IMG/VR virus record: IMGVR_UViG_3300027805_000017
Coordinates: 1 to 56,806 of that record
Length of the DNA stretch: 56,806 nucleotides
Origin: a virus
Lineage: Duplodnaviria > Caudoviricetes
Direction: 5' to 3' (one strand)
Positions within the stretch are counted from its first letter, which is position 1. Every line of letters starts with the position of its first letter. Below the pieces are notes generated by a model. It was given only the letters and a program-made list of their open reading frames with translations. It made no database searches and was not told the DNA's origin. Positions 3,825 through 56,806 of the stretch are shown here, in pieces. Both the position numbers and the translations under genes were made by a program.

Positions 3825-5339
3825 ATGGCACAAGCAAAGAAGATGCTGTCAAAGCTCAAGCGCTTTCAAGAAGGAGGCGAGGTACAAGACGAGTTTCCTG
3901 AAGAAGCGGGCGTCATGCCTGGACAAAACCCTTCCGAGGCCGCCAAGCAGATGCTGTTTTACAAGAAAACGGCTGCACCAACGCCACCAACGGATTTGAC
4001 TCGCTTAGGCAAACAAGCAGGACTCATTGGCTTGGGCTTTGCACCTGGCTCCGGTGTAGCGGACTATTTCGGAAAGTTTCCTGCGGTAGAGGGCGGTACT
4101 GAGCCGAGCGCCGTGGAGAATTTTCAAAAAGGTAATTACGGTACCGCCGCCCTACAGGGCTTGGGCGCTATGGGTGACCTAGCCATGGCGGTGCCTGTTG
4201 CGGGTGCCGCGATTGGAAGCGTGATGAAAGCTCCGCGAACCGCGCAGCGTATTCTTTCATCAAGCACCACGGCCAAGGATGATTTGGTGAAGCTGTTAGG
4301 CTACAGCGAAGACATTCCCAACGAAAAATGGCTTGCTGGAAAGGTAGAAGATGCTGTATCCGGCGGGACAAATTCTTTTGGTGTTCCAAGACGAATGGGC
4401 TCGACTACGGGCTACTTTGGGAAACCAGTGGAAGTTCCTGTTGAAATACTGGCTAAATTACCTGGAGAAAGGGCAGAGCAAAGTAATGTCCGTAAAGACT
4501 CATTGGATTACATCCGCAAGAATTGGGATACGGTGTCAAAAGAGGCACCATATATTGAAGTAGATCCGTTTGGTAAAGCTTGGGTCAGCGAAGGTAACCA
4601 TAGAATTATGGTGGCCAAGGAAAAAGGTTTGAAAACACTTCCGGTAGAGATTCGTTACTTTAGCGGTGGCCAACGTAATGCAGGCGAGCTTGCTCCAGAG
4701 AAAATACTTGAGTACAACTTGCCGAGCACCACCACGGCCAAGGATGATTTGGCGAAGGTGCCAAAAGCACCAAAAGCGGAAAATGATGAAAGCCTAAATA
4801 AAATGCTTGAGAAAAGCGTGGTGAAAGAACCTGTGTATCACGCATCAAAGGCAGATGTAAAAACCTTTTCTCCCGAATACAAAACAGAGCTCTCAAGCAT
4901 GGGATATCACTTCGGCACAGCAGATCAGGCAAATTTTAGAACAGGGCAATACGACTTCTCTGGCGATAACGTGAACATTGGGAAGTATTATTTAGACATC
5001 AAGAACCCATTAGAAACATCTCATATGGGGTCTTTTGCGCCTGACCACTTGGCTGATCAGATGATGGAGATGGGTATACTCGACCCAGCTAAGTACGATG
5101 CGCTTGCAAGCAAACTTAATTATGAATCCGTGCCTTTAGGAAATGCGTTGGTAAAGATTCTTAAAAAGAATGGTTATGATGGCTTGAAGTATGCAAACGA
5201 AAGGGAGGGAGAAGGTTTCTCTTTTGTGCCTTTTGACGCAACACAAATAAAATCAGCTACAGGAAACCGTGGCACATACGATCCTACAACTCCTGACATA
5301 ACGATGGCCAAAGGCGGAGAAGTACGTAAACCCAAATGA
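3825..5339 (+). CDS. Multidomain effector: Gly-rich N-region, ParB/Srx-like domain, ADP-ribosyltransferase-like domain (ART-PolyVal type)
   Basis: PYIEV..WVSEGNHRIMVAKEKGLKTLPVEI (ParB-N G-x-H-R motif); VYHAS..GYHFGT..YYLDIKNPL..GYDGLKY..FDATQIKSATGNRGTYDP (polyvalent-protein ART signature). Confidence 0.75.
   Translation: MAQAKKMLSKLKRFQEGGEVQDEFPEEAGVMPGQNPSEAAKQMLFYKKTAAPTPPTDLTRLGKQAGLIGLGFAPGSGVADYFGKFPAVEGGTEPSAVENFQKGNYGTAALQGLGAMGDLAMAVPVAGAAIGSVMKAPRTAQRILSSSTTAKDDLVKLLGYSEDIPNEKWLAGKVEDAVSGGTNSFGVPRRMGSTTGYFGKPVEVPVEILAKLPGERAEQSNVRKDSLDYIRKNWDTVSKEAPYIEVDPFGKAWVSEGNHRIMVAKEKGLKTLPVEIRYFSGGQRNAGELAPEKILEYNLPSTTTAKDDLAKVPKAPKAENDESLNKMLEKSVVKEPVYHASKADVKTFSPEYKTELSSMGYHFGTADQANFRTGQYDFSGDNVNIGKYYLDIKNPLETSHMGSFAPDHLADQMMEMGILDPAKYDALASKLNYESVPLGNALVKILKKNGYDGLKYANEREGEGFSFVPFDATQIKSATGNRGTYDPTTPDITMAKGGEVRKPK
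4265..4752 (+). repeat. 23-bp direct repeat CACCACGGCCAAGGATGATTTGG (4265-4287, 4730-4752) bracketing the ParB-like domain
   Basis: Exact in-frame repeat; both copies encode TTAKDDL. Confidence 0.9.
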
Positions 5340-14647: not shown

Positions 14648-14699
14648 AGCAACATAGATATTCCCTATCGGTAATTATTTCTAATAAAGAAATTTGTTC

Positions 14700-14740
14700 A
14701 AAAGTCCAGAAAATGTATGTTTTTTTTCTGGACTTTTTTT
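14700..14740. terminator. 14-bp inverted repeat after polA, probable terminator
   Basis: AAAAGTCCAGAAAA (14700-14713) / TTTTCTGGACTTTT (14724-14737), T tract follows. Confidence 0.55.
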
Positions 14741-14803
14741 ATGAAAAGGATTTATGATAAATCCAGTCCAGTAACGTATCATATTTAATTAGGAAGGAGA
14801 AAG

Positions 14804-15094
14804 ATGACGTACAACCAGAAGAAATATCCACGCCCCTTGTGGAAAAACAAACCAAGCTCCCCTGCAAATCGCAAGGAAGCGTGGGTCACGATCATGATCC
14901 GCAGCACCTTCTACGCCATGCTTCGTGAGCTCGCAGAGTTTCACAACATCACCATCGGTCAGGCCGCCATGTTTGCCATAGAAAAGGATTTCAGAGAAGT
15001 CTTGGAGAACAAACAAGGTCCTATGGAAAATCCCCCACCGCCCACGCGCCGCGGGCGCCCTAAAACAAAGGTGCTTTATGTCCCGAAGTTCTAA
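14804..15094 (+). CDS. Putative DNA-binding protein (RHH-like region plus AT-hook RRGRPK)
   Basis: WVTIMIRSTFYAMLRELAE pattern; strong RBS GGAAGGAG. Confidence 0.55.
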   Translation: MTYNQKKYPRPLWKNKPSSPANRKEAWVTIMIRSTFYAMLRELAEFHNITIGQAAMFAIEKDFREVLENKQGPMENPPPPTRRGRPKTKVLYVPKF

Positions 15095-18402: not shown

Positions 18403-18749
18403 ACAAGCTATTCACGCCCGACGAGGTCTACATCTTGGAGGAGCACAAGAAGGCCATAGAAGAGCGCCGCGGCTCTATCGAGCATGAGGTCAAGACCGCC
18501 AACGCCAAGCTCTCCGCCAGACTCACCGCCAACGCCAAGCAAGTAGGTGGCACGCACTACAAAGACATGGGCGTGCAGCCCTGGGATGTTGTAGACACAT
18601 GGCCATATGAGCAGCGCATCGGCTATTACCGTGGCGGAGCGCTGAAGTACGTCATGCGAAGCGGCAGGAAGGATGAAGAAATACAAGAAGCAGGAAAAGC
18701 CCTCCATTACCTAGAAAAACTCATCGAAACTTTAAAGGAAAAATCATGA
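18387..18749 (+). CDS. DUF3310 (SaV-like / T7 gp1.7-related) protein
   Basis: QVGGTHYK..QPWD..GGALKYVMRSGRK..KALHYLEKLIE. Confidence 0.85.
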   Translation: MYTPLDKLFTPDEVYILEEHKKAIEERRGSIEHEVKTANAKLSARLTANAKQVGGTHYKDMGVQPWDVVDTWPYEQRIGYYRGGALKYVMRSGRKDEEIQEAGKALHYLEKLIETLKEKS

Positions 18750-18997
18750 GCACAAACCTCACCCACTACGGCTTCTCACAACAGGCCTTCCCCACTTGGG
18801 TCGCCGATGACAGCATGATGCCAGGCATGTCCTTGGTCGATTACTTCGCCACCCAAGCCTTGGCCATCGCCTCCAAAGACACCCCCAACCACTTTGAGGC
18901 CGCAAGGAATGCCTACGAGATGGCAGGCGCTATGATGGTCGCGCGCCACGAATACCACAAAAAGCACCACGTGCCTGCAGCACCATCCTCACCATGA
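18746..18997 (+). CDS. Small helical protein of the GMxLRDYFA..AYxMADAML family, copy 1
   Basis: AFP..GMSLVDYFATQAL..AYEMAGAMMVAR. Confidence 0.7.
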   Translation: MSTNLTHYGFSQQAFPTWVADDSMMPGMSLVDYFATQALAIASKDTPNHFEAARNAYEMAGAMMVARHEYHKKHHVPAAPSSP

Positions 18998-19212
18998 ATG
19001 ACCAAGACTTGACCGACCTCTTCGCAGGCATGGCCATCCAAGGGCTTCTGGCGGCCGACACCCGCACGCCCTTGGTCAGCGAACTCGCAGAGTATGCCTA
19101 CGACATCGCCGAAGCCATGGTCGAGGAACGCGCTTCACGGACCAAGGACCACGGCTCAGGGATCATGGCCACCAAAAAGTACACCCGCAAATCCAAAAAA
19201 GTCGTAGAATAA
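18994..19212 (+). CDS. Small helical protein of the same family, copy 2
   Basis: LTDLFAGMAIQGLLA..AYDIAEAMVEER. Confidence 0.7.
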   Translation: MNDQDLTDLFAGMAIQGLLAADTRTPLVSELAEYAYDIAEAMVEERASRTKDHGSGIMATKKYTRKSKKVVE

Positions 19213-19252
19213 AAGCGTGAAACAAAATCTCCTTGGTTCAACCCCAGTTTCG

Positions 19253-19405
19253 CTGACACCCCGGAACAGACGGGGGCTTACATGTCTGGTGCTTGGGCAA
19301 CAGGCACTAGTCATGTAGGCGCCTGGTGTTAGCGACCAGGAAGTACCGAGCGGTATAAGCAGACCTGGGTACCTTGGCGGGCACCCGCACTCTTCGCCGC
19401 TTTTT
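19253..19405 (+). ncRNA. Candidate structured RNA: five consecutive hairpins ending in a U tract
   Basis: CCCCG/CGGGG; ~19-bp stem 19276-19320; CCTGGT/ACCAGG; GTACC/GGTAC; GCGG/CCGC+TTTTT; no credible ORF. Confidence 0.45.
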
Positions 19406-26210: not shown

Positions 26211-28373
26211 ATGGCCACAAAAACTCTTGCTGACGTATATGACCAATATCTTGGACGCGCGCCGGATGCGGCGGGTGCAGAGTATTGGAATCAGCAGTTG
26301 GCGGGTGGCTCAAGCCTTGCGGATGTAGAGCGCGCTATTGCGGCGTCTTCTGAGGCGTCGAAGTTAGCGGCTGCACCGCGAAAAGCTGCTGTCAATAACC
26401 CTACTTTTCAGGAAGCGAACAGGGACGTAGAGTTTGCCAAGCCGATGAAGGTGACTGCCGCTGCGGTCAGTAATGTCTTGCGGGATCTGCAGGGCGGAAA
26501 AACGCAAGGCGAGTGGGTGCCTGAACGGGTTCTGTCTAACGGACAGATTAAATATAAGTTTGTGGGCGATTTAGGTACGCCTAAGTTGGCGGACGTATAC
26601 GGAATTTATGCAAGTCTGCCTGACACCGTATCTTCTTGGGGTGAATTGGCTGACCAGATTTCGTACTTACAGGCTAACCCACAGCAGCAGTTAACTGCCC
26701 CTCCTGCGGATCAGTCGCGGGGCTACTACGGTTCGTTGGCCTTGGCTATGGATGCATCACCCACGGGACAATTAACGCGTGAGCAGCAGCGTGCAATTGC
26801 GGCGCCTTACTACGCAATGACCACGGACGCGGAAGGCAATCGTACCCGCACAATGAAGGATTTGATGTACCTTCAACCTGGCACAGATTATTATCAACAG
26901 ATTCGGAATGCGGGCACGGCTGCGCAGCAATTGCAGCAGTTAAACAATACCTCGATGCAGCCGGTTAACTACGGCACAGCAGCAGGCACTACCTCTGGCT
27001 ACAACCCTGCTCAAATCACAGGTGCGCAGACCGTGGAAGTCCCATCGTATGGTTCGTCTACTCCTACACAAAACGGCTATGGCACAACCCCTGGCGCATA
27101 TCGCCCCGTGACCCCGCTGCCCTTTGGTGATGTATTGAGTCAGACCATGCAACCTGCGTCCACACCCTTTACGATGCCACAGCAGCAGCCTGTGTTTGGA
27201 GGACCGGTTAACGTACCGAGCACCAATCCTTTTGACACAACCTACACGCAGCCTGAGACTTTTGTATATCCCGCACAAACGCAACTTCCTCCCATGCAGT
27301 ACGCTAACCCCTTTGAGCCTGCGATGTTTGCAGAGGGCGGGGAAGTCAATCAGACTGGGTTTATGGAAGTAGGCACGCCTGGCTTTATGTCGCAGGCCAT
27401 GTCTGGGCAAATGCCGACTTATCAATACCCAGCTTACGGCGGAATGCCGCAGGACGTGTTTGATTGGACGGCGCCACGTGTCTCGCAAGGCAAACTCATT
27501 CAGCCTCCTCGCCAAGCGCCCGCGCAGTTTGTGGCGCCTCTGTATACTGCCTCTACTATGCCCCTCTTTGGTGGAAGCCCGACAAACACTGTTATTGGTG
27601 GTACGGGCAACGACATCTTTGCCCCAACCCCCATTACTCCGGTAGACACCGTTACGGGTGGCACGGGCAACGACATAATTACTACCCCGCCTGTAGACTA
27701 CACCCCTGCGATTACACAAGCCTACAGCGACATTCTCGGGCGAACGCCTGATGCAGCGGGCTTGAGTTATTGGTCAAACTTGGCCAACCAAGGCGTAAGC
27801 ATGGACGATATTCGTCGTGATATCCAGCTTAATGAGAACCAACTGATTTCGCAAGCGTACAAGGACATTCTTGGCCGTGATGAGGTTGACGCTCCGGGTT
27901 TGGCTTACTGGGCTAACAGTGGCCAAGACATGGACACGATCCGTCGCAATATACAGCTTAACAAAGAACAGCAAGGCATCGCAGCATTGCCCGTGGCCCA
28001 AGGAACTACAACGCCTGTTGCGGAAACGGCACCTGTTGTTGCGCCCGTAGCACCCGTAATTGCGCCCCCAGTCCCCAGACAATATTTCCAGACTACAAAC
28101 TATGAGTCTGGCGAGGGGTATATGGTCGATCTTCCAACCCCAATGGCGGGTTTTGAAGCCGACGCTTCTGGCGGTAGTTGGTACAACTCAAGCGACAGCA
28201 GTGGTGCTGTTGGCGCAAATGCTGGCGCAGAGGCAGCCGCCGCCGCTGCTGATGCCGCAGCCTCCGCAGCTAATAATGATGGCCCCGGTGATGGAGTAGG
28301 ATCAGCCGGTAATGACGCAGGCGCCGCTGGTCAAGGCGCGGGAACCGGGGCGGAAGGTACTGGTAACGAATAA
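26211..28373 (+). CDS. 720-aa low-complexity protein with three DUF4214-like repeats and two GGTGND motifs
   Basis: YDQYLGRAPDAAGAEYW, YSDILGRTPDAAGLSYW, YKDILGRDEVDAPGLAYW; AAGGA RBS. Confidence 0.75.
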   Translation: MATKTLADVYDQYLGRAPDAAGAEYWNQQLAGGSSLADVERAIAASSEASKLAAAPRKAAVNNPTFQEANRDVEFAKPMKVTAAAVSNVLRDLQGGKTQGEWVPERVLSNGQIKYKFVGDLGTPKLADVYGIYASLPDTVSSWGELADQISYLQANPQQQLTAPPADQSRGYYGSLALAMDASPTGQLTREQQRAIAAPYYAMTTDAEGNRTRTMKDLMYLQPGTDYYQQIRNAGTAAQQLQQLNNTSMQPVNYGTAAGTTSGYNPAQITGAQTVEVPSYGSSTPTQNGYGTTPGAYRPVTPLPFGDVLSQTMQPASTPFTMPQQQPVFGGPVNVPSTNPFDTTYTQPETFVYPAQTQLPPMQYANPFEPAMFAEGGEVNQTGFMEVGTPGFMSQAMSGQMPTYQYPAYGGMPQDVFDWTAPRVSQGKLIQPPRQAPAQFVAPLYTASTMPLFGGSPTNTVIGGTGNDIFAPTPITPVDTVTGGTGNDIITTPPVDYTPAITQAYSDILGRTPDAAGLSYWSNLANQGVSMDDIRRDIQLNENQLISQAYKDILGRDEVDAPGLAYWANSGQDMDTIRRNIQLNKEQQGIAALPVAQGTTTPVAETAPVVAPVAPVIAPPVPRQYFQTTNYESGEGYMVDLPTPMAGFEADASGGSWYNSSDSSGAVGANAGAEAAAAAADAAASAANNDGPGDGVGSAGNDAGAAGQGAGTGAEGTGNE

Positions 28374-28391
28374 CACAACAAGGTCATACAT

Positions 28392-30755
28392 ATGTCAGTA
28401 GATAAGGCAATAAATCCTGCGCCGTTGACGGTTGAGATTGAACAACCGGACATGCCTGACGTTGAGATCATCCTTGAGGATGACGGCAGTGCTGTCATTG
28501 AGATAGGCGACGAGGATGAGGTTGGTTTTTACGGCAACTTAGCCGAGGTCATTGATGAGGGCGAGTTGGCTCACGTCTCCATTGAGCTCATGGCGATGTT
28601 TGATGCTGACAAATCCGGCCGTGGTGACTGGGAACAGATGTACTCCAAGGGCTTGGAGTTGCTGGGGCTCAAGATTGAGGAGCGCACGAAGCCATTCCGA
28701 GGTGCGGCGGGTGCGGTGCATCCCATGCTGACCGAGGCGATTGTGCAGTTCCAGTCCCAAGCTATGAAGGAATTGATGCCGGCGGGCGGCCCTGTGCGTA
28801 CACAGATCGTGGGCAAAGAGACTTTAGACAAGTCGCAGCAAGCGGCGCGCGTGCAAGACTTCATGAACTACCAGATTACGTCTGTCATGAAGGAATACAC
28901 GCCTGAGTTTGACCAGTTGCTCTTCTACACGGGCTACGGCGGCTCGGCATTTAAGAAGATTTACTACGACGAGCAGCTCGAGCGCATGGTGAGCAAGCTC
29001 TGTTTGCCTGATGACGTGTACATCCCGTATTGGGGATCGAGTGTCATGAGCGAATGCCCACGGATCACGCATCGTATTGCGATGGATTCCAACGCATTTC
29101 GCAAGCGCGTGGTTTCCGGCGAGTACTTAGATACGCTTGTTTCGCCGAATACGAGTTCTGGGGATGCCAGTCAGATCCGTTATTCGATTGACAAGCAGAC
29201 AGGGGTTGTGGAATCCGGTGCGCCAGAAGAGCTTTTCCTGTTGGAGTTCCAAGTAGACTTGGATATTCCTGGCTTTGAGGATTTGGATGAGGACGGCGAG
29301 CCCACGGGTATCAAGCTTCCTTACGTTGTGACTATTGAAGAGAACAGCGGTTCGGTCATCGCGGTTCGTCGCAATTGGGTCGAGGGCGATCCGAAATGCT
29401 GCCGACGCGAATACTTCGTGCATTACGTCTTGGTTGAGGGTTTGGGTGCTTATGGCTTGGGTTTTGTTCACCTAATAGGTGGATTGTCCAAGACTGCGAC
29501 TGCGGCCCTTCGTCAATTGCTTGATGCGGGTACACTCTCGAACCTACCGGCAGGCTTTAAGGCTAAAGGCGCGCGGATCGCGGACGATGATCAACCGATT
29601 CAGCCAGGTGAGTGGCGTGATATTGACGCGGGTGGCGCAGAACTAAGCTCTTCGCTCTTACCTTTGCCGTACAAAGAGCCTTCACAGACCTTGATGCAGC
29701 TTCTTGGCTTTACGGTCGAGGCAGGAAAGCGTCTGGCAAGCACGGCTGACATGCAAGTGGGTGATGGCAACCAAGCTGCGGCGGTGGGAACTACGATTGC
29801 ACTGCTTGAGCGTGGCTCGATGGTGATGTCTGCCATCCACAAGCGCATGCATTATGCTCAGAAAATGGAATTTGAGATGCTGGCCAGAGGTTTTGGCGAG
29901 TATCTGCCTGATGAGTATCCATATGACGTGCCTGGCGCATCACGGAGCATCAAAAAGCGCGACTTTAACAACATGGTTGCGGTCTTGCCTGTTGCGGATC
30001 CTAACATTTTCTCTGCTGCACAGCGTATTTCTCTGGCTCAGACGCAATTACAGTTGGCGCAAAGCGCGCCACAGATGCATAACATGTACGAAGCGTATTA
30101 TCGCGTGTACGCATCGCTGAATGTGCGTGATATTGACGGTATTTTGCGCCCTCAGAACTCACAAATGCCCAAGGATCCGTCAACCGAGAACGCTGACGTG
30201 TTGGACGGCATGCAATTAAAGGCGTTTGCTGGCCAACAGCACGATGCGCACATTGCAACGCACCTGATGATGGGTCTGTCCCCAATTATTGGGTCGCAGC
30301 CCATGGCGGCCATGGCTTTGCAGAAGCATATTCTTGAGCACGTACGTCTGAAAGCCGAAGAGGACACAGAAGTCGATCTCTTTAAGCAATACGGCATTGA
30401 TCCTGGTCAGATGGTTTCTGAAATCCAGCGTGAAGGCATGATTGCCATCAAGTGTGCGCAGTACATGCAGCAAGTGCGTGATCTGCAAAACCAGTTGGCA
30501 GGCGGTGGTGGTCAAACCGATCCGGTGGTCGCGCTCAAGGAACAGGAACTCAAGCAGCAAGCGGCCAAGGATGAGGCTGATTTGCAGATTGACCAACAGC
30601 AGTTGGCCATTGACCGTGAAAAGATTGCACAGTCCGAGAAATCAAACCAAATGCGTGTTCAAACACAGCAAAACATCGCTGATCAGCGTGCGGAAGTCGC
30701 ACGTGAGCGCGCACGAATCCTGCAACAGGGTATGGAGAGACGTAATGCCAATTAA
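28392..30755 (+). CDS. Portal protein
   Basis: 787 aa after terL; HPMLTEAIVQFQ, GSAFKKIYYD, YGLGFVHL, Q-rich coiled-coil C-terminus like P22-type portals. Confidence 0.88.
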   Translation: MSVDKAINPAPLTVEIEQPDMPDVEIILEDDGSAVIEIGDEDEVGFYGNLAEVIDEGELAHVSIELMAMFDADKSGRGDWEQMYSKGLELLGLKIEERTKPFRGAAGAVHPMLTEAIVQFQSQAMKELMPAGGPVRTQIVGKETLDKSQQAARVQDFMNYQITSVMKEYTPEFDQLLFYTGYGGSAFKKIYYDEQLERMVSKLCLPDDVYIPYWGSSVMSECPRITHRIAMDSNAFRKRVVSGEYLDTLVSPNTSSGDASQIRYSIDKQTGVVESGAPEELFLLEFQVDLDIPGFEDLDEDGEPTGIKLPYVVTIEENSGSVIAVRRNWVEGDPKCCRREYFVHYVLVEGLGAYGLGFVHLIGGLSKTATAALRQLLDAGTLSNLPAGFKAKGARIADDDQPIQPGEWRDIDAGGAELSSSLLPLPYKEPSQTLMQLLGFTVEAGKRLASTADMQVGDGNQAAAVGTTIALLERGSMVMSAIHKRMHYAQKMEFEMLARGFGEYLPDEYPYDVPGASRSIKKRDFNNMVAVLPVADPNIFSAAQRISLAQTQLQLAQSAPQMHNMYEAYYRVYASLNVRDIDGILRPQNSQMPKDPSTENADVLDGMQLKAFAGQQHDAHIATHLMMGLSPIIGSQPMAAMALQKHILEHVRLKAEEDTEVDLFKQYGIDPGQMVSEIQREGMIAIKCAQYMQQVRDLQNQLAGGGGQTDPVVALKEQELKQQAAKDEADLQIDQQQLAIDREKIAQSEKSNQMRVQTQQNIADQRAEVARERARILQQGMERRNAN

Positions 30756-30984
30756 AAAAGGCAGGAGCGACAAGGTCGTGAGTGGAAATATTTCAGAGAT
30801 TGTGAGAGACTATGACAAATCTGGAACGATAGGCAAAAGCAAACCCGCAAGCAAGGCAAAAGCGGTTAAGCAAGCGGTTGCGATTTCTTTGTCTACAGCA
30901 GGTCGCTCGAAAAAGATGCGTGATGGTGGTGTGGTTCGCACCATTAAGAAACGTGATGGCAATCAGCCCGTAAAAATTTACTAG
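30745..30984 (+). CDS. Small basic protein (79 aa; KQAVAISLS, DUF6496-like)
   Basis: GGAG RBS before ATG 30745; carries MRDGGVV tag. Confidence 0.7.
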   Translation: MPIKKGRSDKVVSGNISEIVRDYDKSGTIGKSKPASKAKAVKQAVAISLSTAGRSKKMRDGGVVRTIKKRDGNQPVKIY

Positions 30985-30993
30985 GAGCATTTT

Positions 30994-31329
30994 ATGCCCA
31001 ACAAGTCCCAAGTTCGTAAGCCTACTGCTGACCAGAAAAAAGAGATGGAGCAGTCACGCCAAAAGCTTCAGCGCGCACAGCGCGAAGAAAACGACCTACT
31101 TAGTAGGATTGCGCCTATGTTTGGCAAAGCTGCGCGTGATGATGCAAAGCAGGCAAAGAAGGACATGGAGGCGGTGCCAAAGGCTGTTCGTGACTACGAA
31201 GACATGGCTGCCTCTGAAGTGCAATACCCCGATGACGGCACAACGCCCATCAAAAAGAGCAAAGGCGGTATGGTCACGGCTCGCGGTCAGGGCTGCGTGA
31301 TGAAAAAGAAATCCACACGAATGTATTGA
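30994..31329 (+). CDS. Hypothetical protein (111 aa)
   Basis: AGGAG RBS; C-terminal KSKGGMVTARGQG. Confidence 0.7.
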   Translation: MPNKSQVRKPTADQKKEMEQSRQKLQRAQREENDLLSRIAPMFGKAARDDAKQAKKDMEAVPKAVRDYEDMAASEVQYPDDGTTPIKKSKGGMVTARGQGCVMKKKSTRMY

Positions 31330-31593: not shown

Positions 31594-32058
31594 GTGGAAG
31601 CTGAGAAAACGTTAACTGCGCTTGAGCGCAAGTGGCAGCAAGAAGCCTTGGAGAAAGGTCCAAGTCTAGACGACGCCTATACGGCAGACGGGGAATTTGA
31701 TCCCTCGAAGCTTGAAGGCGAAGTAATGGACAGGATTCCAACCCCAACAGGCTGGCGCATGGCCATTTTGCCGTATCGAGGTGCGGAGAAATCCAAAGGC
31801 GGTATTGTTCTTGCCGAAGAAACCCAAAAGCGTACGCAATTAGCCACGACATGTGGCTATGTACTAAAGATGGGTGACTTGGCGTTTAAGGACGAGTCTA
31901 AATTCCCTCACGGTCCGTGGTGCAAGGAGGGGGATTGGATCATCTTTGGTCGTTACGCGGGTTCTAGGATCTCTATTGATGGTGGAGAGATTCGTATCTT
32001 GAACGATGACGAGATTATTGGCGTGCTCAATGATCCTTCTGATATTTTGCATATGTAA
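31594..32058 (+). CDS. groES: Co-chaperonin GroES (Cpn10)-like protein
   Basis: PTGWRMAI..KSKGGIVL..GYVLKMG..KEGDWIIFGRYAGS..RILNDDEIIGV. Confidence 0.88.
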   Translation: MEAEKTLTALERKWQQEALEKGPSLDDAYTADGEFDPSKLEGEVMDRIPTPTGWRMAILPYRGAEKSKGGIVLAEETQKRTQLATTCGYVLKMGDLAFKDESKFPHGPWCKEGDWIIFGRYAGSRISIDGGEIRILNDDEIIGVLNDPSDILHM

Positions 32059-35050: not shown

Positions 35051-35407
35051 CTTCGCCAGTCTTTTTCTTGACCGCTCGTCATGATGATGGATTCTGTGAC
35101 AATTTGAACAAAGCGGGACACATTTTTTTATTTCTTCTAGTGCGGCGGAGAAGTTATTGCAGCGCAGTATTTCAAATATTTTTCTGTCTCCTGGAGACGG
35201 AGACACGTGATGAAAGTCAATTGCCGCCGGATGAGATAGGCCGCACTTGATGCAACTGACGCTTTCTTTGTATTCTATCCATTGCGTTCTAATTGACTTT
35301 TTCCTGGTTTGCGTTCTTTTTATGACTTCACTTTTGTTTGCTTCGTAGTGTTTTCTTGAATACTCACGATGCTTTAGCTTTCGCTTTTCTGGGTCTTTGT
35401 ACGGCAT
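35027..35407 (-). CDS. HNH endonuclease
   Basis: CIKCG..IDFHH..EEIKKCVPLCSNCHRIHH. Confidence 0.88.
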   Translation of the reverse strand: MPYKDPEKRKLKHREYSRKHYEANKSEVIKRTQTRKKSIRTQWIEYKESVSCIKCGLSHPAAIDFHHVSPSPGDRKIFEILRCNNFSAALEEIKKCVPLCSNCHRIHHHDERSRKRLAKKKKNPAL

Positions 35408-35849
35408 CTGCTGCGTCCTTCGAGATATTTAACCGCCAGTATAAGCTATGCTTAAAGCCCCAAGGGATAGACGGTTCATACAACTTAAAACCTTCGCTTA
35501 TTAAACTATTGCTGCTTGCTGGGTTTGCTGTTGTGTCGGTAATAAGCCAGTTCCAGTTTAACTTCTTTGCTTTGTTTACCCTAGCACGAATAAGTTTCTT
35601 CTGTATGCCATGGCCTGTGTACTCAGGCACGACTCCGGCACGGCACATATAGCCTGTGTCCCACCACCTTGAGGAACGGGTCAATCCTGCGAACCCAACA
35701 GGCAGGTTATTTTCCGTATATGCAATCCACCAGTGCCCGTGAGCCACGGCACATGGTTTGTCTGCAGGCAGACATTTCTTTTGCAGATAGAGCAATACAT
35801 TTCGTATTGACATATCCCTTGTATCTACATAGCGTATGTGGAAGCGCAT
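35364..35849 (-). CDS. GNAT-family acetyltransferase
   Basis: PVGFAGL..RAGVVPEYTGHGIQKKLI (motif A)..NPASSNSLISEGF. Confidence 0.85.
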   Translation of the reverse strand: MRFHIRYVDTRDMSIRNVLLYLQKKCLPADKPCAVAHGHWWIAYTENNLPVGFAGLTRSSRWWDTGYMCRAGVVPEYTGHGIQKKLIRARVNKAKKLNWNWLITDTTANPASSNSLISEGFKLYEPSIPWGFKHSLYWRLNISKDAADAVQRPRKAKAKAS

Positions 35850-36763: not shown

Positions 36764-37069
36764 ATGAGCTTTGCAAGCGATATCTCGGCGGTCAGCAAGA
36801 CTGCGACTGGGCAAGCGGTTAATGGACGTACACGCCTTGCGGGCATGTACTTTACACATACTGTCACACCTGCCACCATTACATTGCGTAGCGGTGGCGG
36901 ATCCGGTACTGTTTTGCTTACTATGACCTCTCCTGCTGCGGCAGGATCTCAGGATATGATTATCCCTGACAATGGCATCCTGTTTACGGACGGCATCCAC
37001 ATTACGCTCAGTAGCGCTGAAATTACCAGCGTAACACTACTGTTCGTCGGCGGCGGCGCTGTTGCATAA
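36764..37069 (+). CDS. Probable virion structural protein (101 aa)
   Basis: AGGAG RBS; IPDNGILFTDG motif. Confidence 0.65.
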   Translation: MSFASDISAVSKTATGQAVNGRTRLAGMYFTHTVTPATITLRSGGGSGTVLLTMTSPAAAGSQDMIIPDNGILFTDGIHITLSSAEITSVTLLFVGGGAVA

Positions 37070-37338
37070 TGGCTAAGAAAACCCCCTCCCTATCAATTGG
37101 ACGCGGGGAAAAGTTACCTGTGTCCAAGGGAGCGGGCTTAACTGCCAAAGGCCGTGCCAAAATGAATGCGGCAACGGGCTCTAATTTAAAAGCACCGGCA
37201 CCAAACCCAAAAACCAAGGCAGATGCAGGGCGTAAGAAATCTTTTTGTTCACGCATGGGGGGTATGCCGGGCCCTATGAAGGACGAAAAGGGTCGCCCTA
37301 CTCGTAAAGCCGCTGCTCTTAAACGATGGAAATGTTGA
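37069..37338 (+). CDS. Small basic protein (DUF6321-like)
   Basis: GLTAKGRA..LKAP..RKKSFCSRM..ALKRWKC. Confidence 0.7.
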   Translation: MAKKTPSLSIGRGEKLPVSKGAGLTAKGRAKMNAATGSNLKAPAPNPKTKADAGRKKSFCSRMGGMPGPMKDEKGRPTRKAAALKRWKC

Positions 37339-38251: not shown

Positions 38252-38506
38252 ATGATGAATTCAAAGATGATGGCAGCAGGCGGCATGATGAAAAAAGGCT
38301 ACGCTGCGGGTGGTGCTGTTAAGAAAAAGGAAGCGGCAGGCGGCGCTATGAAAATGGTCGAAAAGAACGGCAAGAAAGTTCCTGCTTTTGCGGCTGATGG
38401 GGTAGGTAAAATGGCCAAAGGCGGCATGGCAAAGTCAAAGATGATGGCGTCTGGCGGCATGATGAAAAAAGGTGCTGCTTCAGGTGGTGCTAAGGGTAAA
38501 AAGTAA
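38252..38506 (+). CDS. M/K/A/G-rich protein built from six xAxGG repeats
   Basis: MAAGGMM, YAAGGAV, EAAGGAM, MAKGGMA, MASGGMM, AASGGAK. Confidence 0.75.
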   Translation: MMNSKMMAAGGMMKKGYAAGGAVKKKEAAGGAMKMVEKNGKKVPAFAADGVGKMAKGGMAKSKMMASGGMMKKGAASGGAKGKK

Positions 38507-38562: not shown

Positions 38563-38847
38563 ATGAAAACTTGTCGTGGAATGGGCGTAATTTTAGCTTC
38601 CAAAATGCCAAAGGGTAAGGAAAAAACTCGCCCAGATGACATGGAAGTTTTAACGTATGCCAAAGGCGGCGAAGCCAAGTCCAAAGTAAACGAGTCGGGT
38701 AACTACACCAAGCCTGGGATGCGCAAGCGGATGTTTAACAGCATCAAAGCGGCTGCGGTACAAGGCACAGGTGCAGGCCAGTGGAGCGGGCGCAAGGCAC
38801 AGCTTTTGGCCAAACGCTATAAGGCCGGCGGCGGAGGCTATAAGTGA
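38563..38847 (+). CDS. Basic protein, N-half of DUF5872-like domain
   Basis: NYTKPGMRKR..GQWSGRKAQLLAKRYKAGGGGYK; YAKGGEA tag. Confidence 0.7.
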   Translation: MKTCRGMGVILASKMPKGKEKTRPDDMEVLTYAKGGEAKSKVNESGNYTKPGMRKRMFNSIKAAAVQGTGAGQWSGRKAQLLAKRYKAGGGGYK

Positions 38848-39110: not shown

Positions 39111-39299
39111 ATGGCCGGACGTGGAATGGGTGCTGCAATTAAAGGCGGCGGAGCAGTAGGAACGGGTCCTCGGAACAAGATGCTGAGTGAAACATCGCAG
39201 ACTACGGGTCCTGTCATGATGAAAAACGGTGGCGCTGTTAACCAACACAAGCGCATGGCCATGGGCAAAAAGCTCAAAAAAGGCGGGATGGTTAAATAA
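39111..39299 (+). CDS. Small basic protein with GG tags (62 aa)
   Basis: AAGGA RBS; MKNGGAV, LKKGGMV. Confidence 0.7.
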   Translation: MAGRGMGAAIKGGGAVGTGPRNKMLSETSQTTGPVMMKNGGAVNQHKRMAMGKKLKKGGMVK

Positions 39300-51614: not shown

Positions 51615-53894
51615 ATGGCAGACGCGATGCAAGGCATTATGGCGCTTCCCCAAGCGCCCGAACAAGCAAGTACCCCTCCTGTAGACCCGATGGCGGGCGT
51701 TGATCCTGCGGCATTAGCTGCGTTTGAAGAAGCGCGCGCCACGGCTGATCCAGTCCAGGTAGGTACAGAGCTCCTGAAGGAAGGCGAAAAGGCGGATCCT
51801 GCAACGGTTTCTGAGTTGCGCCGAACGCTTAAAAGCGCCAATCTTCCTCCCCAAATTCTAGACGCAATTGGCCAGATGGTCGATGCGATTATGGCAGAGC
51901 CTGAAAAGTACCAAGAACTGCGTGCAGGATTCTTGGCTGAAGGCGTACCTGAGGACTTGTTGCCTGCGCAGTTTGATGCGGAGTTTTTCGGCGCATTGAA
52001 CTTAGTTCTCGATCAAATGAACACGGGTTATCCCCAAGAGCAAGCACCTGAGGCAGGTGGTATTGCCTCCATGCCCATGGGGGCGGTGGAGCCTGGTGCA
52101 CCACAAGCGTTTGCTCAGGGTGGTATTGCGGGTCTGAAGCCCTTGGCGGCTGAAATGGCCAAGATGGGACGTCGTGGCGACACGATGCTTGCGCACATCA
52201 CGCCCTCTGAGGCACGTATGCTGCGTCGCCGTGGCGGTAGCGGCACAATTAACCCGTCTACAGGACTGCCAGAATTCTTTTTAGGCAAGCTTTTTAAATC
52301 AGTTGGTAACGCATTTAAATCGGTGGGTAAAGCCATTGTTAGTGGTGTAAAAGCCATTGCTCGCGGAGTCAAGAAGTTTGCCAGCAGTACTGTGGGCAAG
52401 GTTGTGACTGCGGTTGCACTGGGTTTCTTTTTAGGACCCGCTGCGGCTGGACTTTTGGGCGTGACCTCCACGGCCGGAGTGGCTGCAGTTAGCGGCTTTG
52501 TTGGTGGTTTTGGCTCTTCCATGTTGGCGGGTCAAGGTATTGGCGCTGCGTTGAAAATGGGCGCAATTGGTGGTTTGGGTGCAGGACTGGGTGCAGGTGT
52601 CTTAGGTGGCGCAAATGCGTTTGCCGCAGGCAGCTACGCAGGTCCAACAACTGTCGCTGGGCAGTGGGATAGTCTTGTATCTGGGGCTAAAAACCTAGTC
52701 GGTGCAGGAACACCTACTTCTACCAGCACCGCAGGCTACGCTGATTTAGGTAGCTATGGCGATATGGCGCCCGCCTCTATAGCGCCCCCATCAGCGCCTA
52801 GCGTTACACCTAGCGTTACACCTACAGGTGCGCAGACCTTCCCTGTTGCTCCACCTACGGGCGGAACCATTACATCGCCGCCCTTTACGCCTAGCTACGA
52901 GGTGTCGCAAGGTGCGGTGGGTGGAACCAGTGTTCCTCAGGTCGATTTAGCTAACTTAGACGTGGGTTCTGTTGGCAGTCGTTATGGAGGGATAGGTGGT
53001 GGTCCAGGCTCAGAAATTCAGTATGGTAGTACGGCTACTGCACCCGCACCCGCACCCGCACCCGCTCCTACTGTTGCCGCTCCTACTGTTAGCTCTGATT
53101 ATGTCCCGCCTGCTAATTATGCTGGAAAAACAGCAGGCGCATTTATTGGCGAATATGGAGATGCCCCTAACTTGCTTCAGCAAGCACAGCAAGGTCTTTT
53201 GGACACGCAACAAGGTGCAACAGGACTGTTTGATAGGGCAAAGAACTTCTTCTTGCCAGAAGCACCTTCTACTGCGGATTTAATTGCAAAAGGAGAGGCT
53301 GCTGTAAGAGCATTAGGACCTAATGCTTCTGAGTATGCAAAAAAATTAGCTTTTGAAACCGCATCTAAAGCACCCAGCGCTATTCGTCAGTATCTACCTC
53401 TTGCTGCAGCCGGCTTAGGCATCATGTCTCTTGCGGGTGGCTTTAAAACCCCTGAATCAGTCAAACCAGGACTGATTCCACAGCAAACAGGATATGACTT
53501 ATACAAGCAGGATCCTGAGCGTTACGGGGTAACAGTCCCCGCAGCGACGACCACCTACGCCCCTACCTCTTACGAGAATATGTACTCAACACCGCTTGTG
53601 CGTAGAATGCCTGCACAATACATGCCGCAACAGAATGTGCGTCGCTTTGCAGAAGGCGGTTCGGCGCAGGAGCCTGACTACCCGACTGACATGGATGAAT
53701 ACATCCCCATGGACGGTCCGATTGACGGTCCAGGAACCGGCACTTCTGACTCTATTCCCGCCATGCTCTCGGACGGCGAATTTGTGATGACCGCAAGCGC
53801 TGTTAGGGGCGCGGGCAACGGCTCACGGCGCGAGGGTGCTAAACGCATGTACGCCCTAATGAAACAACTCGAAGAGGCCAATAATGGCAACTGA
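51615..53894 (+). CDS. Putative ejection/internal virion protein (759 aa)
   Basis: FAQGG..GRRGDTMLAHI..INPSTGLPEF; Gly-rich TM-like region; C-terminal GPGTGTSDSIPAMLSDGEFV. Confidence 0.7.
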   Translation: MADAMQGIMALPQAPEQASTPPVDPMAGVDPAALAAFEEARATADPVQVGTELLKEGEKADPATVSELRRTLKSANLPPQILDAIGQMVDAIMAEPEKYQELRAGFLAEGVPEDLLPAQFDAEFFGALNLVLDQMNTGYPQEQAPEAGGIASMPMGAVEPGAPQAFAQGGIAGLKPLAAEMAKMGRRGDTMLAHITPSEARMLRRRGGSGTINPSTGLPEFFLGKLFKSVGNAFKSVGKAIVSGVKAIARGVKKFASSTVGKVVTAVALGFFLGPAAAGLLGVTSTAGVAAVSGFVGGFGSSMLAGQGIGAALKMGAIGGLGAGLGAGVLGGANAFAAGSYAGPTTVAGQWDSLVSGAKNLVGAGTPTSTSTAGYADLGSYGDMAPASIAPPSAPSVTPSVTPTGAQTFPVAPPTGGTITSPPFTPSYEVSQGAVGGTSVPQVDLANLDVGSVGSRYGGIGGGPGSEIQYGSTATAPAPAPAPAPTVAAPTVSSDYVPPANYAGKTAGAFIGEYGDAPNLLQQAQQGLLDTQQGATGLFDRAKNFFLPEAPSTADLIAKGEAAVRALGPNASEYAKKLAFETASKAPSAIRQYLPLAAAGLGIMSLAGGFKTPESVKPGLIPQQTGYDLYKQDPERYGVTVPAATTTYAPTSYENMYSTPLVRRMPAQYMPQQNVRRFAEGGSAQEPDYPTDMDEYIPMDGPIDGPGTGTSDSIPAMLSDGEFVMTASAVRGAGNGSRREGAKRMYALMKQLEEANNGN

Positions 53895-55311: not shown

Positions 55312-56806
55312 ATGAAATCAAAAGTATTGAGCAGACCGATGTTTAATAAAGGGGGTATGGCCGAGCCGATCCCTGAGGATATGGTCGAGAACGTAGGCAT
55401 CATGCAGGGTTTTATGGATGATGACGCTGAAGACTTTGAGGCCGAGGAAATGGATGAGCGCGCGCCTAATTCACCAGAAATTCTGATGAATAACTTGCGT
55501 GGCGACATGCGCTCGGTTGATGCGCGCGTGGACGAATTGGCCAATCTCGTAGGTGAAGAGGTTGCCATGGACACACCCACCGAAGTATTGGCGCTGTTGC
55601 AGCCCGTGCTTGCCGCACAGAGCGGAATTGGTGCGCTGCCCGCGGGTATGCCCCCAGGGATGCCACCCGGTATGCCACCGGGTATGCCTCCAGAAATGGG
55701 CATGCCACCTGGTATGCCTCCAGAAATGGGCATGCCACCTGGTATGCCTCCAGAAATGGGTATGCCCCCTGTACCACCCGGTGCAGAAGGTGGTATCGGC
55801 GCATTAATGGCGCCTCCCGCTCCACCGCCCACGGCCCAAGCGCCAATTAACATGGCCAAGGGTGGATACGTCCAAGTTCAGCGTTTTCAAGAGGGGTCCG
55901 GTGAGGAGGGCGTGACCCCAGCTACTACTTACCCTCCAGAGTTAGTTAAGTATGCGCAAGAACAACTGATGGCGCAGCGCGGCGCAGGAAACTTAAAGCA
56001 GTCTGTGGAAGATGTGATGCCTGTTTACCGAGAAATCCTCGGTGGCGGGGATCGTCGCACGATGCAAGGTCAGGCCTTGTTGGATATTGCGCAGGCCGGT
56101 TTAAATCTTGCCTCGGGACGTAATGCACAAGGTGCGAATGTGGCGGGCGGATCGTTTGCCTCGCAACTCGCTTCTGCAGCACAAGGCTTACCCGCAAAGC
56201 TTGCCGAGCGCGCCGGACAGTTTCAGCAAGAAGAGCGTGCTATTAAATTAGCGGCGCTTAAATCTGCTGAGTCGAATGTGGAAAGTCAGCGTAAGCTCTT
56301 TTCACAAATTGTGAAGAGCTCAGGGCAGAGTCCTTTTGGTAAGGGTGACTGGGATTGGGCAGTATTAAACCGTCCTGGTTTGCTGCAAAAGTGGACGGAA
56401 GGTAACGTCACGGCTGAAGAGGACATGTTGGTTCAGTCGGCAATTACAAAGATGCAGTCGCCAAAAACAGAATTTAAGACAGACCCTGTTACAAAACTAC
56501 CCTATCCAGTCCAAGTTCCTGGAGTCCTGCCACCTTTTGTAGCAGAAGCTGTTAATAAACGTGGAGGCATAAGAACGACTGGTGGAACTACGACTGGTGG
56601 AACTACGACCGCGGATAAGATTACAGCAATAACTGATCCTAATGATCCACTTCGCCGAGATGAGGAACAAGCAGGTAAGCGAGAGAAAGCAGGAACTCCT
56701 ACTATCCCGAAAGAAGTGACGGCCAGTACGTACTCAAAGAATGAGCCTACCTTCTTCAATATGGCAGGTCGTGGAACAGGTCCAATTAGTGTGGCAAAGC
56801 CCTTTG
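55312..56806 (+). CDS. N-terminal part of the ~650-aa ejection/internal virion protein (continues to 592); absent from the ORF track because there is no stop before the window end
   Basis: AAGGA RBS; MKSKVLSRPMFNKGGMA..; open to the end and in frame with 44-592. Confidence 0.85.
   Translation, partial: MKSKVLSRPMFNKGGMAEPIPEDMVENVGIMQGFMDDDAEDFEAEEMDERAPNSPEILMNNLRGDMRSVDARVDELANLVGEEVAMDTPTEVLALLQPVLAAQSGIGALPAGMPPGMPPGMPPGMPPEMGMPPGMPPEMGMPPGMPPEMGMPPVPPGAEGGIGALMAPPAPPPTAQAPINMAKGGYVQVQRFQEGSGEEGVTPATTYPPELVKYAQEQLMAQRGAGNLKQSVEDVMPVYREILGGGDRRTMQGQALLDIAQAGLNLASGRNAQGANVAGGSFASQLASAAQGLPAKLAERAGQFQQEERAIKLAALKSAESNVESQRKLFSQIVKSSGQSPFGKGDWDWAVLNRPGLLQKWTEGNVTAEEDMLVQSAITKMQSPKTEFKTDPVTKLPYPVQVPGVLPPFVAEAVNKRGGIRTTGGTTTGGTTTADKITAITDPNDPLRRDEEQAGKREKAGTPTIPKEVTASTYSKNEPTFFNMAGRGTGPISVAKPF
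55681..55770 (+). repeat. Three 30-bp tandem repeats (GMPPEMGMPP), preceded by 12-bp GMPP units
   Basis: GGTATGCCTCCAGAAATGGGCATGCCACCT twice exact, third copy near-exact. Confidence 0.9.
56673..56806. repeat. Terminal direct repeat, right copy
   Basis: Matches 1-134 with one mismatch. Confidence 0.95.

What the first reader, a model, noticed from the sequence alone, without database searches (positions are those of the whole stretch)
38252..38506. Shared [MFY]-x-x-G-G-x-[VIAM] tag on nine unrelated late proteins: candidate cargo-loading/processing system
Seen: FQEGGEV (3864) and MAKGGEV (5304) in the ART effector; FAEGGEV (27327); MRDGGVV (30916); KSKGGMV (31255); six copies making up most of this 84-aa ORF; YAKGGEA (38656); MKNGGAV and LKKGGMV (ORF 39111); FAQGGIA (52110) and FAEGGSA (53646); FNKGGMA (55342) and MAKGGYV (55852). 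Codons differ, so conservation is at protein level. Tags sit at termini or domain boundaries in disordered regions, and I did not see them in the replication enzymes. Established analogies: T4 capsid-targeting sequence; double-glycine cleavage sites. Inference: a portable signal that loads ejection proteins, basic core proteins and accessory effectors into the head, or marks maturation cleavage. The tag-only polymer could be a multivalent hub. I recognised no prohead protease; the adjacent ORF 37581, the scaffold and ORF 33005 are candidate readers.
Basis: partly seen in the sequence, partly recalled or inferred. Interest (0 to 1): 0.85.

Follow-up and report, generated by a model that had tools for sequence, protein, structure and literature searches.

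The report
Portable GG peptide tag on phage cargo
A seven-residue peptide (hydrophobic-x-x-Gly-Gly-x-Val/Ala) recurs on about ten virion-cargo proteins of this podophage, is also found in the tape-measure proteins of many long-tailed phages including lambda, and probably acts as a docking signal, though what binds it is unknown.

Summary
All 18 motif copies sit at the stated coordinates. The strict pattern occurs 15 times in 82 proteins against 3.6 in shuffles (0 of 300 reach it). A matrix trained only on outside homologues still finds 8 hits against 0.8 expected (0 of 200). There are no hits in the 39 early or replication proteins. ORF84 is a real gene, with 22 synonymous against 6 non-synonymous codon differences to its orthologue.

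The tag is not specific to this clade. In the 759-aa ejection protein it flanks a box (GPGTGTSDSIPAMLSDGEFV) that also occurs in 591 phage records, mostly tape-measure proteins. Lambda gpH carries the same tag-box-tag module.

Homologues of the ADP-ribosyltransferase (ART) protein show the tag as a movable leader, trailer and module-boundary cassette on differing bodies.

Most likely it is a docking peptide for proteins that leave the virion with the DNA. No reader protein and no protease were found. Cleavage and capsid-shell loading remain rival explanations.

The parts
38252..38506 (+). ORF84: an 84-aa Met/Gly/Lys-rich protein made of six tag copies (MAAGGMM, YAAGGAV, EAAGGAM, MAKGGMA, MASGGMM, AASGGAK). 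Its two halves are an internal duplication.
   Evidence: Coding: 22 synonymous against 6 non-synonymous codon differences to the L007 orthologue. Duplication: 75 nt, 38258-38332 against 38432-38506, 77% identical. No Pfam or PHROG family.
39111..39299 (+). ORF39111: a 62-aa small basic protein with a conserved N-terminal part and two C-terminal tags (MKNGGAV, LKKGGMV). Its stop overlaps the start of the adaptor gene.
   Evidence: The family is found in 52 of 80 related loci. 50 of 51 orthologues carry strict tags, 124 in all, and the last tag ends 0-2 residues from the C-terminus in 34 of 51. Copy number varies, up to 8.
38563..38847 (+). 94-aa protein with tag YAKGGEA at residue 32.
   Evidence: phrog_17747; matrix score 12.0.
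30745..30984 (+). 79-aa basic protein directly after the portal gene, with tag MRDGGVV.
   Evidence: 26 of 45 orthologues carry a strict tag. The DSL-LC04 counterpart has MKSGGSV.
30994..31329 (+). 111-aa basic protein with a tag-like KSKGGMV near the C-terminus.
   Evidence: The DSL-LC04 orthologue has YAKGGLV at the same place. 8 of 9 orthologues carry a strict tag.
51615..53894 (+). 759-aa tape-measure-like ejection protein. Tag 1 is FAQGGIA (residue 166) and tag 2 is FAEGGSA (678). The C-terminal box GPGTGTSDSIPAMLSDGEFV (705-724) is followed by a helix.
   Evidence: In 73 aligned sequences A167, G169, G170 and G681 are invariant. Both tags have pLDDT below 50. The box matches tape-measure proteins in PDB entries 8zdo and 8rk3 and 591 phage records.
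55312..56805 (+). Ejection protein, open at the window end, with an N-terminal tag FNKGGMA (residue 11) and MAKGGYV (181).
   Evidence: DSL-LC04 has MANGGIV followed by the same QRFQEGS stretch. The 023Pt counterpart starts with MFRGGPV at residue 9.
3825..5339 (+). 504-aa ART-PolyVal cargo protein with a leader tag FQEGGEV (14) and a trailer tag MAKGGEV (494 of 504).
   Evidence: PF18760, E 2.4e-14. The leader and trailer cassettes occur on differing bodies in homologues.
26211..28373 (+). 720-aa DUF4214 protein in the slot before the portal gene, with tag FAEGGEV (373) between its domains.
   Evidence: Non-homologous proteins in the same slot carry tags in DSL-LC04 (3 N-terminal) and 023Pt (3, one C-terminal).

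Best explanation
The motif phi-x-x-G-G-x-[V/A/I/M] (phi = F, M or Y) is a genuine short linear motif in disordered segments. It marks the proteins that this podophage carries in the virion and sends into the cell with its DNA. These are the tape-measure-like ejection protein, a second ejection protein, four or five small basic proteins, and modular effector proteins such as the ADP-ribosyltransferase.

The motif is shared with the C-terminal module of tape-measure proteins. There, one tag sits just before a conserved hairpin box (GPGTGxSDSIPAxLSxGEFV) and another often follows the next helix, as in lambda gpH.

Inferred mechanism: the tag is a docking peptide that folds on binding. It attaches its bearer to a common partner in the DNA-delivery apparatus, so that varied cargo is co-assembled and leaves with the DNA. 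ORF84 and ORF39111, with 2-8 tags about 10 residues apart, would be multivalent linkers.

Shown: the motif, its conservation, its portability and its link to tape-measure proteins. Inferred: binding, the partner, and virion residence of the cargo.
For: - Enrichment holds with an independently trained matrix.
- The strict pattern is absent from 39 early proteins. Across 80 related loci it is also absent from the capsid protein (0 of 79), scaffold (0 of 68), ORF33005 (0 of 73) and adaptor (0 of 39). In the same loci it is present in 50 of 51 ORF39111, 26 of 45 ORF30745 and 8 of 9 ORF30994 orthologues.
- A167, G169 and G170 are invariant in 73 sequences while the flanks vary.
- The tags of the 759-aa protein lie in predicted disorder.
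- Tags sit at the extreme C-terminus, with 0-2 residues after the motif in 34 of 51 ORF39111 relatives. Caulobacter phage RW's protein ends in YMDGGRV. This suits a terminal docking peptide better than a cleavage site.
- The leader and trailer cassettes occur on differing bodies.
- A tag lies directly before the box in 4 of 8 fetched tape-measure or ejection loci, and further tags lie downstream in 3 of 8.
- Lambda gpH has three tags around the homologous box. The last one (842-848) lies within residues 818-849, which are modelled in the mature tail tip next to gpI (passages read in PMC12617516 and PMC10721106).
- Neighbours in the same spread: DSL-LC04 has 10 strict hits against 3.7 expected (2 of 200 shuffles reach it), and 023Pt has 14 against 3.2 (0 of 200).
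Against: - No binding partner was identified.
- No virion proteomics exists for this clade. The CRP-901 paper (PMC10149686) contains no match for 'mass spectrometry' or 'SDS-PAGE'.
- Tags at every module boundary of long cargo proteins look like polyprotein punctuation.
- Lambda gpH is cut by an unknown agent in the Gly-rich stretch just before its first tag.
- More distant relatives show no proteome-wide excess: HTVC023P 3 against 3.45 expected, CRP-901 4 against 2.9, Pag-Yong1 4 against 2.6, Alcaligenes phage 3 against 2.2, Caulobacter RW 3 against 1.7.
- Tag 2 is looser than tag 1. Only 48 of 108 box-bearing homologues have a strict tag within 60 residues upstream, although all 108 have a GG there.
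- T7 and P22 ejection proteins lack the tag, so it is not general to podophages.
Confidence: 0.42

Rival explanations
1. Processing site. The tags are cleavage sites for a Gly-Gly-directed endopeptidase, either a host enzyme or an unrecognised phage one. Cleavage would trim leaders and trailers, cut modular cargo into separate effectors, and chop ORF84 and ORF39111 into short basic peptides.
For: - The same cassette lies at each module boundary and at both ends of 600-1300-aa cargo proteins.
- Lambda gpH loses a ~14 kDa C-terminal piece in its Gly-rich region, with site and enzyme unknown (PMC12617516 passages). That region lies just before tag FATGGFT at 733.
- The P22 record notes that a host peptidase removes 20 N-terminal residues of ejection protein gp7.
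- GG-directed maturation sites in adenovirus and other large DNA viruses are recalled, not tested here.
Against: - No peptidase of any family was found in the window by Pfam or PHROGs.
- Hosts of tag-bearing phages span several phyla, so a shared host enzyme would be needed.
- Many tags end 0-2 residues before the C-terminus, where cutting would remove almost nothing.
- Lambda tag 842-848 is intact in the modelled mature particle.
- T5 tape-measure cleavage is after R1127, which is not stated to be a GG site.
Confidence: 0.2
2. Capsid cargo-loading peptide. The tag would bind the inner capsid shell, the scaffold or the portal, like the T4 capsid-targeting sequence or encapsulin cargo peptides. 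It would thereby load proteins into the procapsid.
For: - The tagged proteins are of the kinds expected inside a podophage head: ejection proteins, basic proteins and effectors.
- Tags lie at termini.
- A separate scaffold protein and no protease fit a tag that stays on the protein.
Against: - The same tag-box module is found in tape-measure proteins of long-tailed phages. By established knowledge of lambda assembly, these proteins are built into tails, not heads.
- The ~10-residue spacing of tags in ORF84 and ORF39111 is short for reaching neighbouring capsid subunits (inference).
- No partner was tested successfully.
Confidence: 0.15
3. No dedicated reader. The tag is a flexible hinge or a weakly self-sticking element that keeps proteins extended for passage through the tail channel, or lets them clump together.
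For: - The tags lie in predicted disorder.
- Small proteins carry many copies with variable copy number.
- Positions -1 and +1 are highly variable.
Against: - Position -3 is almost always F, Y or M, position -2 is invariably A at tag 1, and +2 is A, V or I across 37 distinct sequences. That is tighter than a hinge needs.
- T7 and P22 ejection proteins manage without the tag.
Confidence: 0.12
4. Mimic of the GroES mobile loop. The tags would bind host GroEL, in a phage group that always encodes its own GroES in the head module.
For: - The phage GroES loop reads K[ST]KGGI[VIL]L in 7 of 8 aligned phage GroES sequences (the window and six relatives; the Alcaligenes phage differs).
- It resembles tags such as KSKGGMV and TKAKGGEV.
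Against: - In the tags the residue after GG is often charged (E, R, D) and +3 is polar, so the hydrophobic triplet of the loop is missing.
- Tape-measure tags occur in phages without GroES, such as lambda.
Confidence: 0.04

Closest known systems
C-terminal module of tape-measure proteins (lambda gpH residues ~733-790 and 842-848; JBD30 gp46; mycobacteriophage Douge gp16)
   Same: Tag, hairpin box (xGEFVxTxxA), helix and a second tag in the same order. The box matched by sequence. The module sits near the C-terminus of a protein that leaves through the tail.
   Different: In those phages the tag is confined to the tape measure: lambda as a whole has 2 strict hits against 1.56 expected. Here it has spread to about ten proteins. 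The window protein lacks the downstream tag and has ~20 extra residues between tag and box. The module's function is unknown in lambda too, and it is unresolved in the structures.
T4 capsid-targeting sequence
   Same: A short portable peptide that can carry unrelated proteins into a virion (recalled; reviews appeared in the listing but were not read).
   Different: The T4 signal is N-terminal only and is removed by the prohead protease. Here tags are N-terminal, internal and C-terminal, and no protease was found.
Polyvalent proteins with MuF or portal fusions (Iyer et al. 2017, PMC5512222, passages read)
   Same: ART-PolyVal and LPD23 modules in shuffled orders, encoded among late genes and predicted to be injected.
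   Different: No MuF domain here. The tag cassette takes the places where an addressing domain would be expected. The words 'glycine' and 'tape measure' do not occur in that paper.
Encapsulin cargo-loading peptides
   Same: A short Gly-containing terminal peptide on varied cargo of an HK97-fold shell (recalled).
   Different: A different consensus. Binding to the shell was not tested here, and the link to tape-measure proteins argues for another partner.
Adenovirus-type GG maturation sites
   Same: A hydrophobic residue a few positions before GG, and basic core proteins (recalled).
   Different: The hydrophobic residue is one position further from GG, and no cysteine protease is encoded.

Membership tests
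Tape-measure C-terminal module (lambda gpH type) | Conserved box GPGTGxSDSIPAxLSxGEFV or its lambda form, followed by a helix | tested here: met
   Window residues 705-757. PDB tape-measure hits E 1.1e-5 and 4.4e-4; 591 phage records; lambda alignment by eye; hairpin plus helix in the model.
Tape-measure C-terminal module (lambda gpH type) | phi-x-x-GG-x-[VIA] directly before the box | tested here: met
   Seen in 4 of 8 fetched loci. In the window family a GG lies within 60 residues upstream in 108 of 108 box-bearing homologues, and it is a strict tag in 48.
Tape-measure C-terminal module (lambda gpH type) | The protein sets tail length inside a long tail tube | tested here: not met
   The window has podophage-type genes (SU10-type adaptors, no tail tube or sheath). 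The 759-aa protein is therefore tape-measure-like, not a tape measure.
T4-type capsid-targeting sequence | N-terminal position only | tested here: not met
   Tags are at N-termini, C-termini and internal sites.
T4-type capsid-targeting sequence | Removed by a phage prohead protease | tested here: not met
   No peptidase family among 76 window proteins scanned with Pfam or 52 scanned with PHROGs. Cleavage itself is not testable with these tools.
Double-glycine leader with C39 peptidase exporter | N-terminal leader ending in GG, with a C39 peptidase-transporter nearby | tested here: not met
   No C39 family or transporter in the window. Tags are not confined to leaders.
Polyvalent (virion-delivered) effector proteins | Effector modules of the polyvalent set | tested here: met
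   ART-PolyVal, 54.7 bits against a cut-off of 31.2. LPD23 and ART-PolyVal in homologues.
Polyvalent (virion-delivered) effector proteins | MuF or portal fusion for head incorporation | tested here: not met
   No MuF hit in the ART protein or in 38 homologues.
GroES mobile loop | GG followed by three hydrophobic residues, within a Cpn10 fold | tested here: not met
   Met only by the phage's own GroES (PF00166; loop). Tags have charged or polar residues at +1 and +3.
Encapsulin-type cargo-loading peptide | Binds the inner face of the HK97-fold shell protein | not tested

The most novel reading that the evidence does not exclude
A seven-residue address code, inherited from the docking end of tape-measure proteins, lets HTVC023P-type podophages attach arbitrary cargo to their ejection machinery without a MuF domain. 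The cargo includes ADP-ribosyltransferases, other polyvalent modules and basic DNA-associated proteins. Tag-only proteins such as ORF84 act as multivalent couplers. The same code would explain the unassigned, unresolved region of lambda gpHC, and would let injected effectors be picked out of metagenomes by their tags.
Probability: 0.3. Interest if true: 0.8.

Novelty: new variant of a known kind. Interest (0 to 1): 0.66.

Why it matters
Phages inject proteins along with their DNA, but for most phages it is not known how those proteins are chosen for the virion. A short portable tag would give a rule for this in a phage group that includes the widespread HTVC023P-type pelagiphages (named as widespread in the abstract of PMC9599517, seen in the listing).

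It would also:
- flag injected effectors in metagenomes;
- give a handle for loading foreign proteins into particles;
- point to a testable role for a conserved but unexplained stretch of lambda gpH. The authors of PMC12617516 say the cleavage site and cleaving agent of gpH are unknown.

I found no description of the motif. Searches for the box strings and the tag strings returned no phage paper, and the polyvalent-protein paper does not mention it. Subscription journals are outside the library searched.

Tried and rejected
- **Complex prediction.** Three copies of residues 660-759 of the 759-aa protein were folded with ORF84 as partner. Result: no answer, score 0.00 against a mark of 0.32, controls not run. 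This counts neither for nor against binding. Only this one pair was tried, because the cap is one job.
- **ORF33005 as reader or hidden protease.** AlphaFold2 model from 40 sequences: mean pLDDT 69.7, pTM 0.46. Foldseek against the PDB gave no match at E <= 0.001; the best was E 0.44. The protein atlas gave only unnamed viral clusters.
- **ORF37581 as reader.** Rejected on distribution.
- **S24/S26 serine-peptidase likeness of the box.** I noticed this from memory. It is not supported: no Pfam hit at E <= 10, and the segment is modelled as a hairpin plus helix.
- **Solved structures of close relatives.** None found for the capsid protein or the portal.
- **Pfam PF27499**, precomputed on one homologue, is not in the local library.
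- **Hits dropped as chance matches in conserved structured stretches.** 023Pt terminase FRQGGFV, portal MPAGGPV, and terminase LQPGGSI in the window.
- **Earlier scan notes.** Nothing relevant.
- **Related loci for the 1074-aa protein.** The search gave only 2 loci, with no tagged neighbours.
- **Technical.** timed out and was rerun.

Full report
**What the window is.** The 56.8-kb window is most of a podophage genome of the HTVC023P / DSL-LC04 type.
- Its capsid protein is 90% identical to that of Phage DSL-LC04 and 70% identical to that of Pelagibacter phage HTVC023P.
- The late genes run: terminase, a large variable protein, portal, small basic proteins, GroES, scaffold, two unknowns, capsid protein, further small genes, two SU10-type adaptors, tail genes, lysis genes, then a row of large ejection proteins.
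- The last ORF (55312-56805) runs off the window. The first ORF (2-592) matches the C-terminal part of the same DSL-LC04 protein.

**Check of the observation.**
- MRDGGVV lies in a 79-aa gene (30745-30984) that starts at the portal stop codon with a ribosome-binding site.
- The strict pattern occurs 15 times in 82 curated proteins against 3.6+-1.8 in per-protein shuffles (0 of 300 reach it). Without ORF84 it occurs 11 times against 3.3 (0 of 300).
- Because that pattern was written after seeing the data, I trained a matrix on 37 distinct 10-mers taken only from outside homologues of one tag site. I then scanned the other window proteins: 8 hits against 0.8 expected (0 of 200).
- The 39 early or replication proteins have no strict hit. 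The 43 late ones have 15.
- Codons differ between copies.
- Three strict hits are not tags. In the portal site the GG is not conserved in relatives. The GroES site is the co-chaperonin mobile loop. FVGGGAV at the end of ORF36764 is uncertain.

**ORF84 is a gene.**
- Against its orthologue in locus L007 (about 83% nucleotide identity in that stretch) there are 22 synonymous and 6 non-synonymous codon differences.
- Its two halves are a 75-nt internal duplication.
- A full-length orthologue was found only in L007. The other 17 loci hit by tblastn match only its repeats.

**ORF39111 is the widespread relative.**
- It is present in 52 of 80 related loci.
- It has a conserved N-terminal part and a C-terminal tail of 2-8 tags spaced about 10 residues apart.
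- 50 of 51 orthologues carry strict tags. The last tag ends 0-2 residues from the C-terminus in 34 of 51.

**Family specificity across the 80 loci**.
- No strict tag: capsid protein 0 of 79, scaffold 0 of 68, GroES 0 of 54, ORF33005 0 of 73, first adaptor 0 of 39.
- With tags: ORF30745 relatives 26 of 45, ORF30994 relatives 8 of 9.

**Whole genomes of relatives.**
- DSL-LC04 has 10 strict hits against 3.7 expected (2 of 200). 023Pt_psg01 has 14 against 3.2 (0 of 200). HTVC023P has 3 against 3.45, although its three hits look like true tags.
- More distant relatives show no excess (CRP-901, Pag-Yong1, Alcaligenes phage, Caulobacter phage RW). They keep tags in the expected proteins, for example Caulobacter RW MARGGYA directly before the box and YMDGGRV as the last seven residues.

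**The turn in the story: a link to tape-measure proteins.**
- The 759-aa ejection protein has 72 full-length homologues, aligned (40-88% identity).
- At tag 1, A167, G169 and G170 are invariant while the flanks vary. At tag 2, G681 is invariant.
- AlphaFold2 places both tags in segments with pLDDT below 50.
- Downstream of tag 2 lies a highly conserved box, GPGTGTSDSIPAMLSDGEFV, then a helix.
- This box matches the tape-measure proteins of mycobacteriophage Douge and Pseudomonas phage JBD30 in the PDB sequence set. It also matches 591 phage records, mostly tape-measure proteins of phages of Gordonia, Mycobacterium, Pseudomonas, Arthrobacter and Burkholderia.
- In neither structure paper is that region resolved (passages read).
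- In 8 fetched examples a tag sits directly before the box in 4: LATGGAV, FASGGHI, YATGGPV and FAEGGLV. Two more have GG with a non-hydrophobic residue at -3. Two have a tag-like string 12-14 residues upstream. Three have a further tag after the helix.

**Lambda gpH has the same module.**
- Its sequence reads FATGGFT (733), then a homologous box and helix, then YATGGYV (778), and MRDGGLF (842) near the end.
- According to PMC12617516 (passages read), this region is gpHC, the ~14 kDa piece cut from gpH in its Gly-rich stretch. The site and the agent are unknown. Residues ~690-817 are unresolved, and 818-849 are modelled next to gpI.
- PMC10721106 likewise built residues 818-849. So the last lambda tag survives intact in the mature particle.

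**The tag is confined in other model phages.**
- Lambda as a whole has 2 strict hits against 1.56 expected.
- T7 and P22 structural and ejection proteins have essentially none, even with a relaxed pattern.
- So the tag is old and sits in tape-measure-type proteins. Its spread to about ten proteins is peculiar to this podophage lineage.

**Portability.**
- The ART-PolyVal protein has 90 homologues at E <= 1e-5, most sharing only part of its length.
- 30 of 90 carry a tag within the first 40 residues, typically in a shared basic leader followed by the tag and an acidic stretch. 14 of 90 carry one in the last 25 residues by pattern match, and several more have K at position -3.
- The bodies differ: ART-PolyVal at various positions, LPD23, or no known family.
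- A search of 1.84 billion representative proteins with the 62-aa leader found 14 clusters. The leader is at the N-terminus in 7 and inside longer proteins in the others.
- In six of those proteins, inspected in detail (267-1284 aa), the tag recurs at internal module boundaries; five have two or three copies, four of them with one at or near the C-terminus.
- The slot before the portal gene holds non-homologous proteins in the window, DSL-LC04 and 023Pt. All of them are tagged.

**Mechanism.**
- The tag-bearers are tape-measure proteins, podophage ejection proteins and polyvalent-type effectors. What they share is that they leave the particle through the tail with the DNA. This is established for tape measures. 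For polyvalent proteins it is a prediction (PMC5512222). For the window proteins it is inferred.
- I therefore read the tag as a docking peptide of the DNA-delivery apparatus.
- Three observations favour binding over cutting: the extreme C-terminal placement, the intact lambda tag, and the lack of any peptidase.
- Two observations keep processing alive: the boundary punctuation in cargo proteins, and the unexplained gpH cleavage next to tag 1.
- The two readings could be combined, as in T4, where the targeting peptide is later removed (recalled).

**The reader protein is unknown.**
- ORF37581 is ruled out by distribution.
- ORF33005 has no recognisable fold.
- The one complex prediction gave no answer.

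**Limits.**
- Gene sets of relatives were called by a greedy longest-ORF rule, not taken from annotation.
- Disorder was modelled for one protein only.
- There is no proteomic evidence for any member of the clade.
- The literature search covers open-access papers and preprints only.

Noticed in passing
window 53727-53786 (residues 705-724 of the 759-aa protein): The box GPGTGTSDSIPAMLSDGEFV is among the most widespread short motifs of tape-measure proteins (591 phage records). It has no Pfam family in the local library and no resolved structure. Its first part resembles, from memory, the catalytic-serine strand of S24/S26 peptidases, but no profile supports this.
   Followed up: partly
L101/L102 (lambda), gene K 14276-14875: The record annotates gpK as a C40-family peptidase. 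One paper says gpK is needed for tail assembly and its location is unknown; another did not detect it in virions by mass spectrometry. It is an untested candidate for the unknown agent that cuts gpH next to its first tag.
   Followed up: no
window 30745-30984, 30994-31329; HTVC023P 18717-19322: Three small basic proteins near the portal gene end in a similar C-terminal [K/R]-x-[I/M]-Y (…PVKIY, …STRMY, …PTKMY). The large terminases of the window and three relatives end in YY. This may be a second terminal motif.
   Followed up: no
window 37069-37338: The 89-aa DUF6321 protein matches the C-terminal ends of much longer PHROG families (positions 438-525 of 525 and 859-928 of 928), so it behaves like a detachable C-terminal domain. 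Its HTVC023P counterpart carries tag FKRGGDV at residue 13.
   Followed up: no
window 31594-32058: A GroES homologue with a ~50-residue N-terminal extension sits between the portal and scaffold genes. It is conserved at that place in all seven relatives examined.
   Followed up: partly
window 35364-35849 (- strand): A GNAT acetyltransferase lies on the opposite strand in the middle of the late operon. GNAT genes are also annotated among the structural or ejection genes of CRP-901 and the Alcaligenes phage.
   Followed up: no
window 52170-52280 (residues ~185-222 of the 759-aa protein): Directly after tag 1 lies a second conserved disordered stretch, consensus GRNGDTMLAHITPxEARMLRRxGGSGTINPxTGLPEFF, with many invariant residues. 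No family is assigned to it.
   Followed up: no
window 55312-56805 and 2-592: Both ends of the window match one 645-aa DSL-LC04 protein. Joining the window ends in frame gives a stop after 513 residues. So the window is a permuted, nearly whole genome with a gap at the junction.
   Followed up: partly
window 55600-55770: The protein starting at 55312 has a run of MPPG / PPEMG repeats (about residues 110-160) between its two tags.
   Followed up: no
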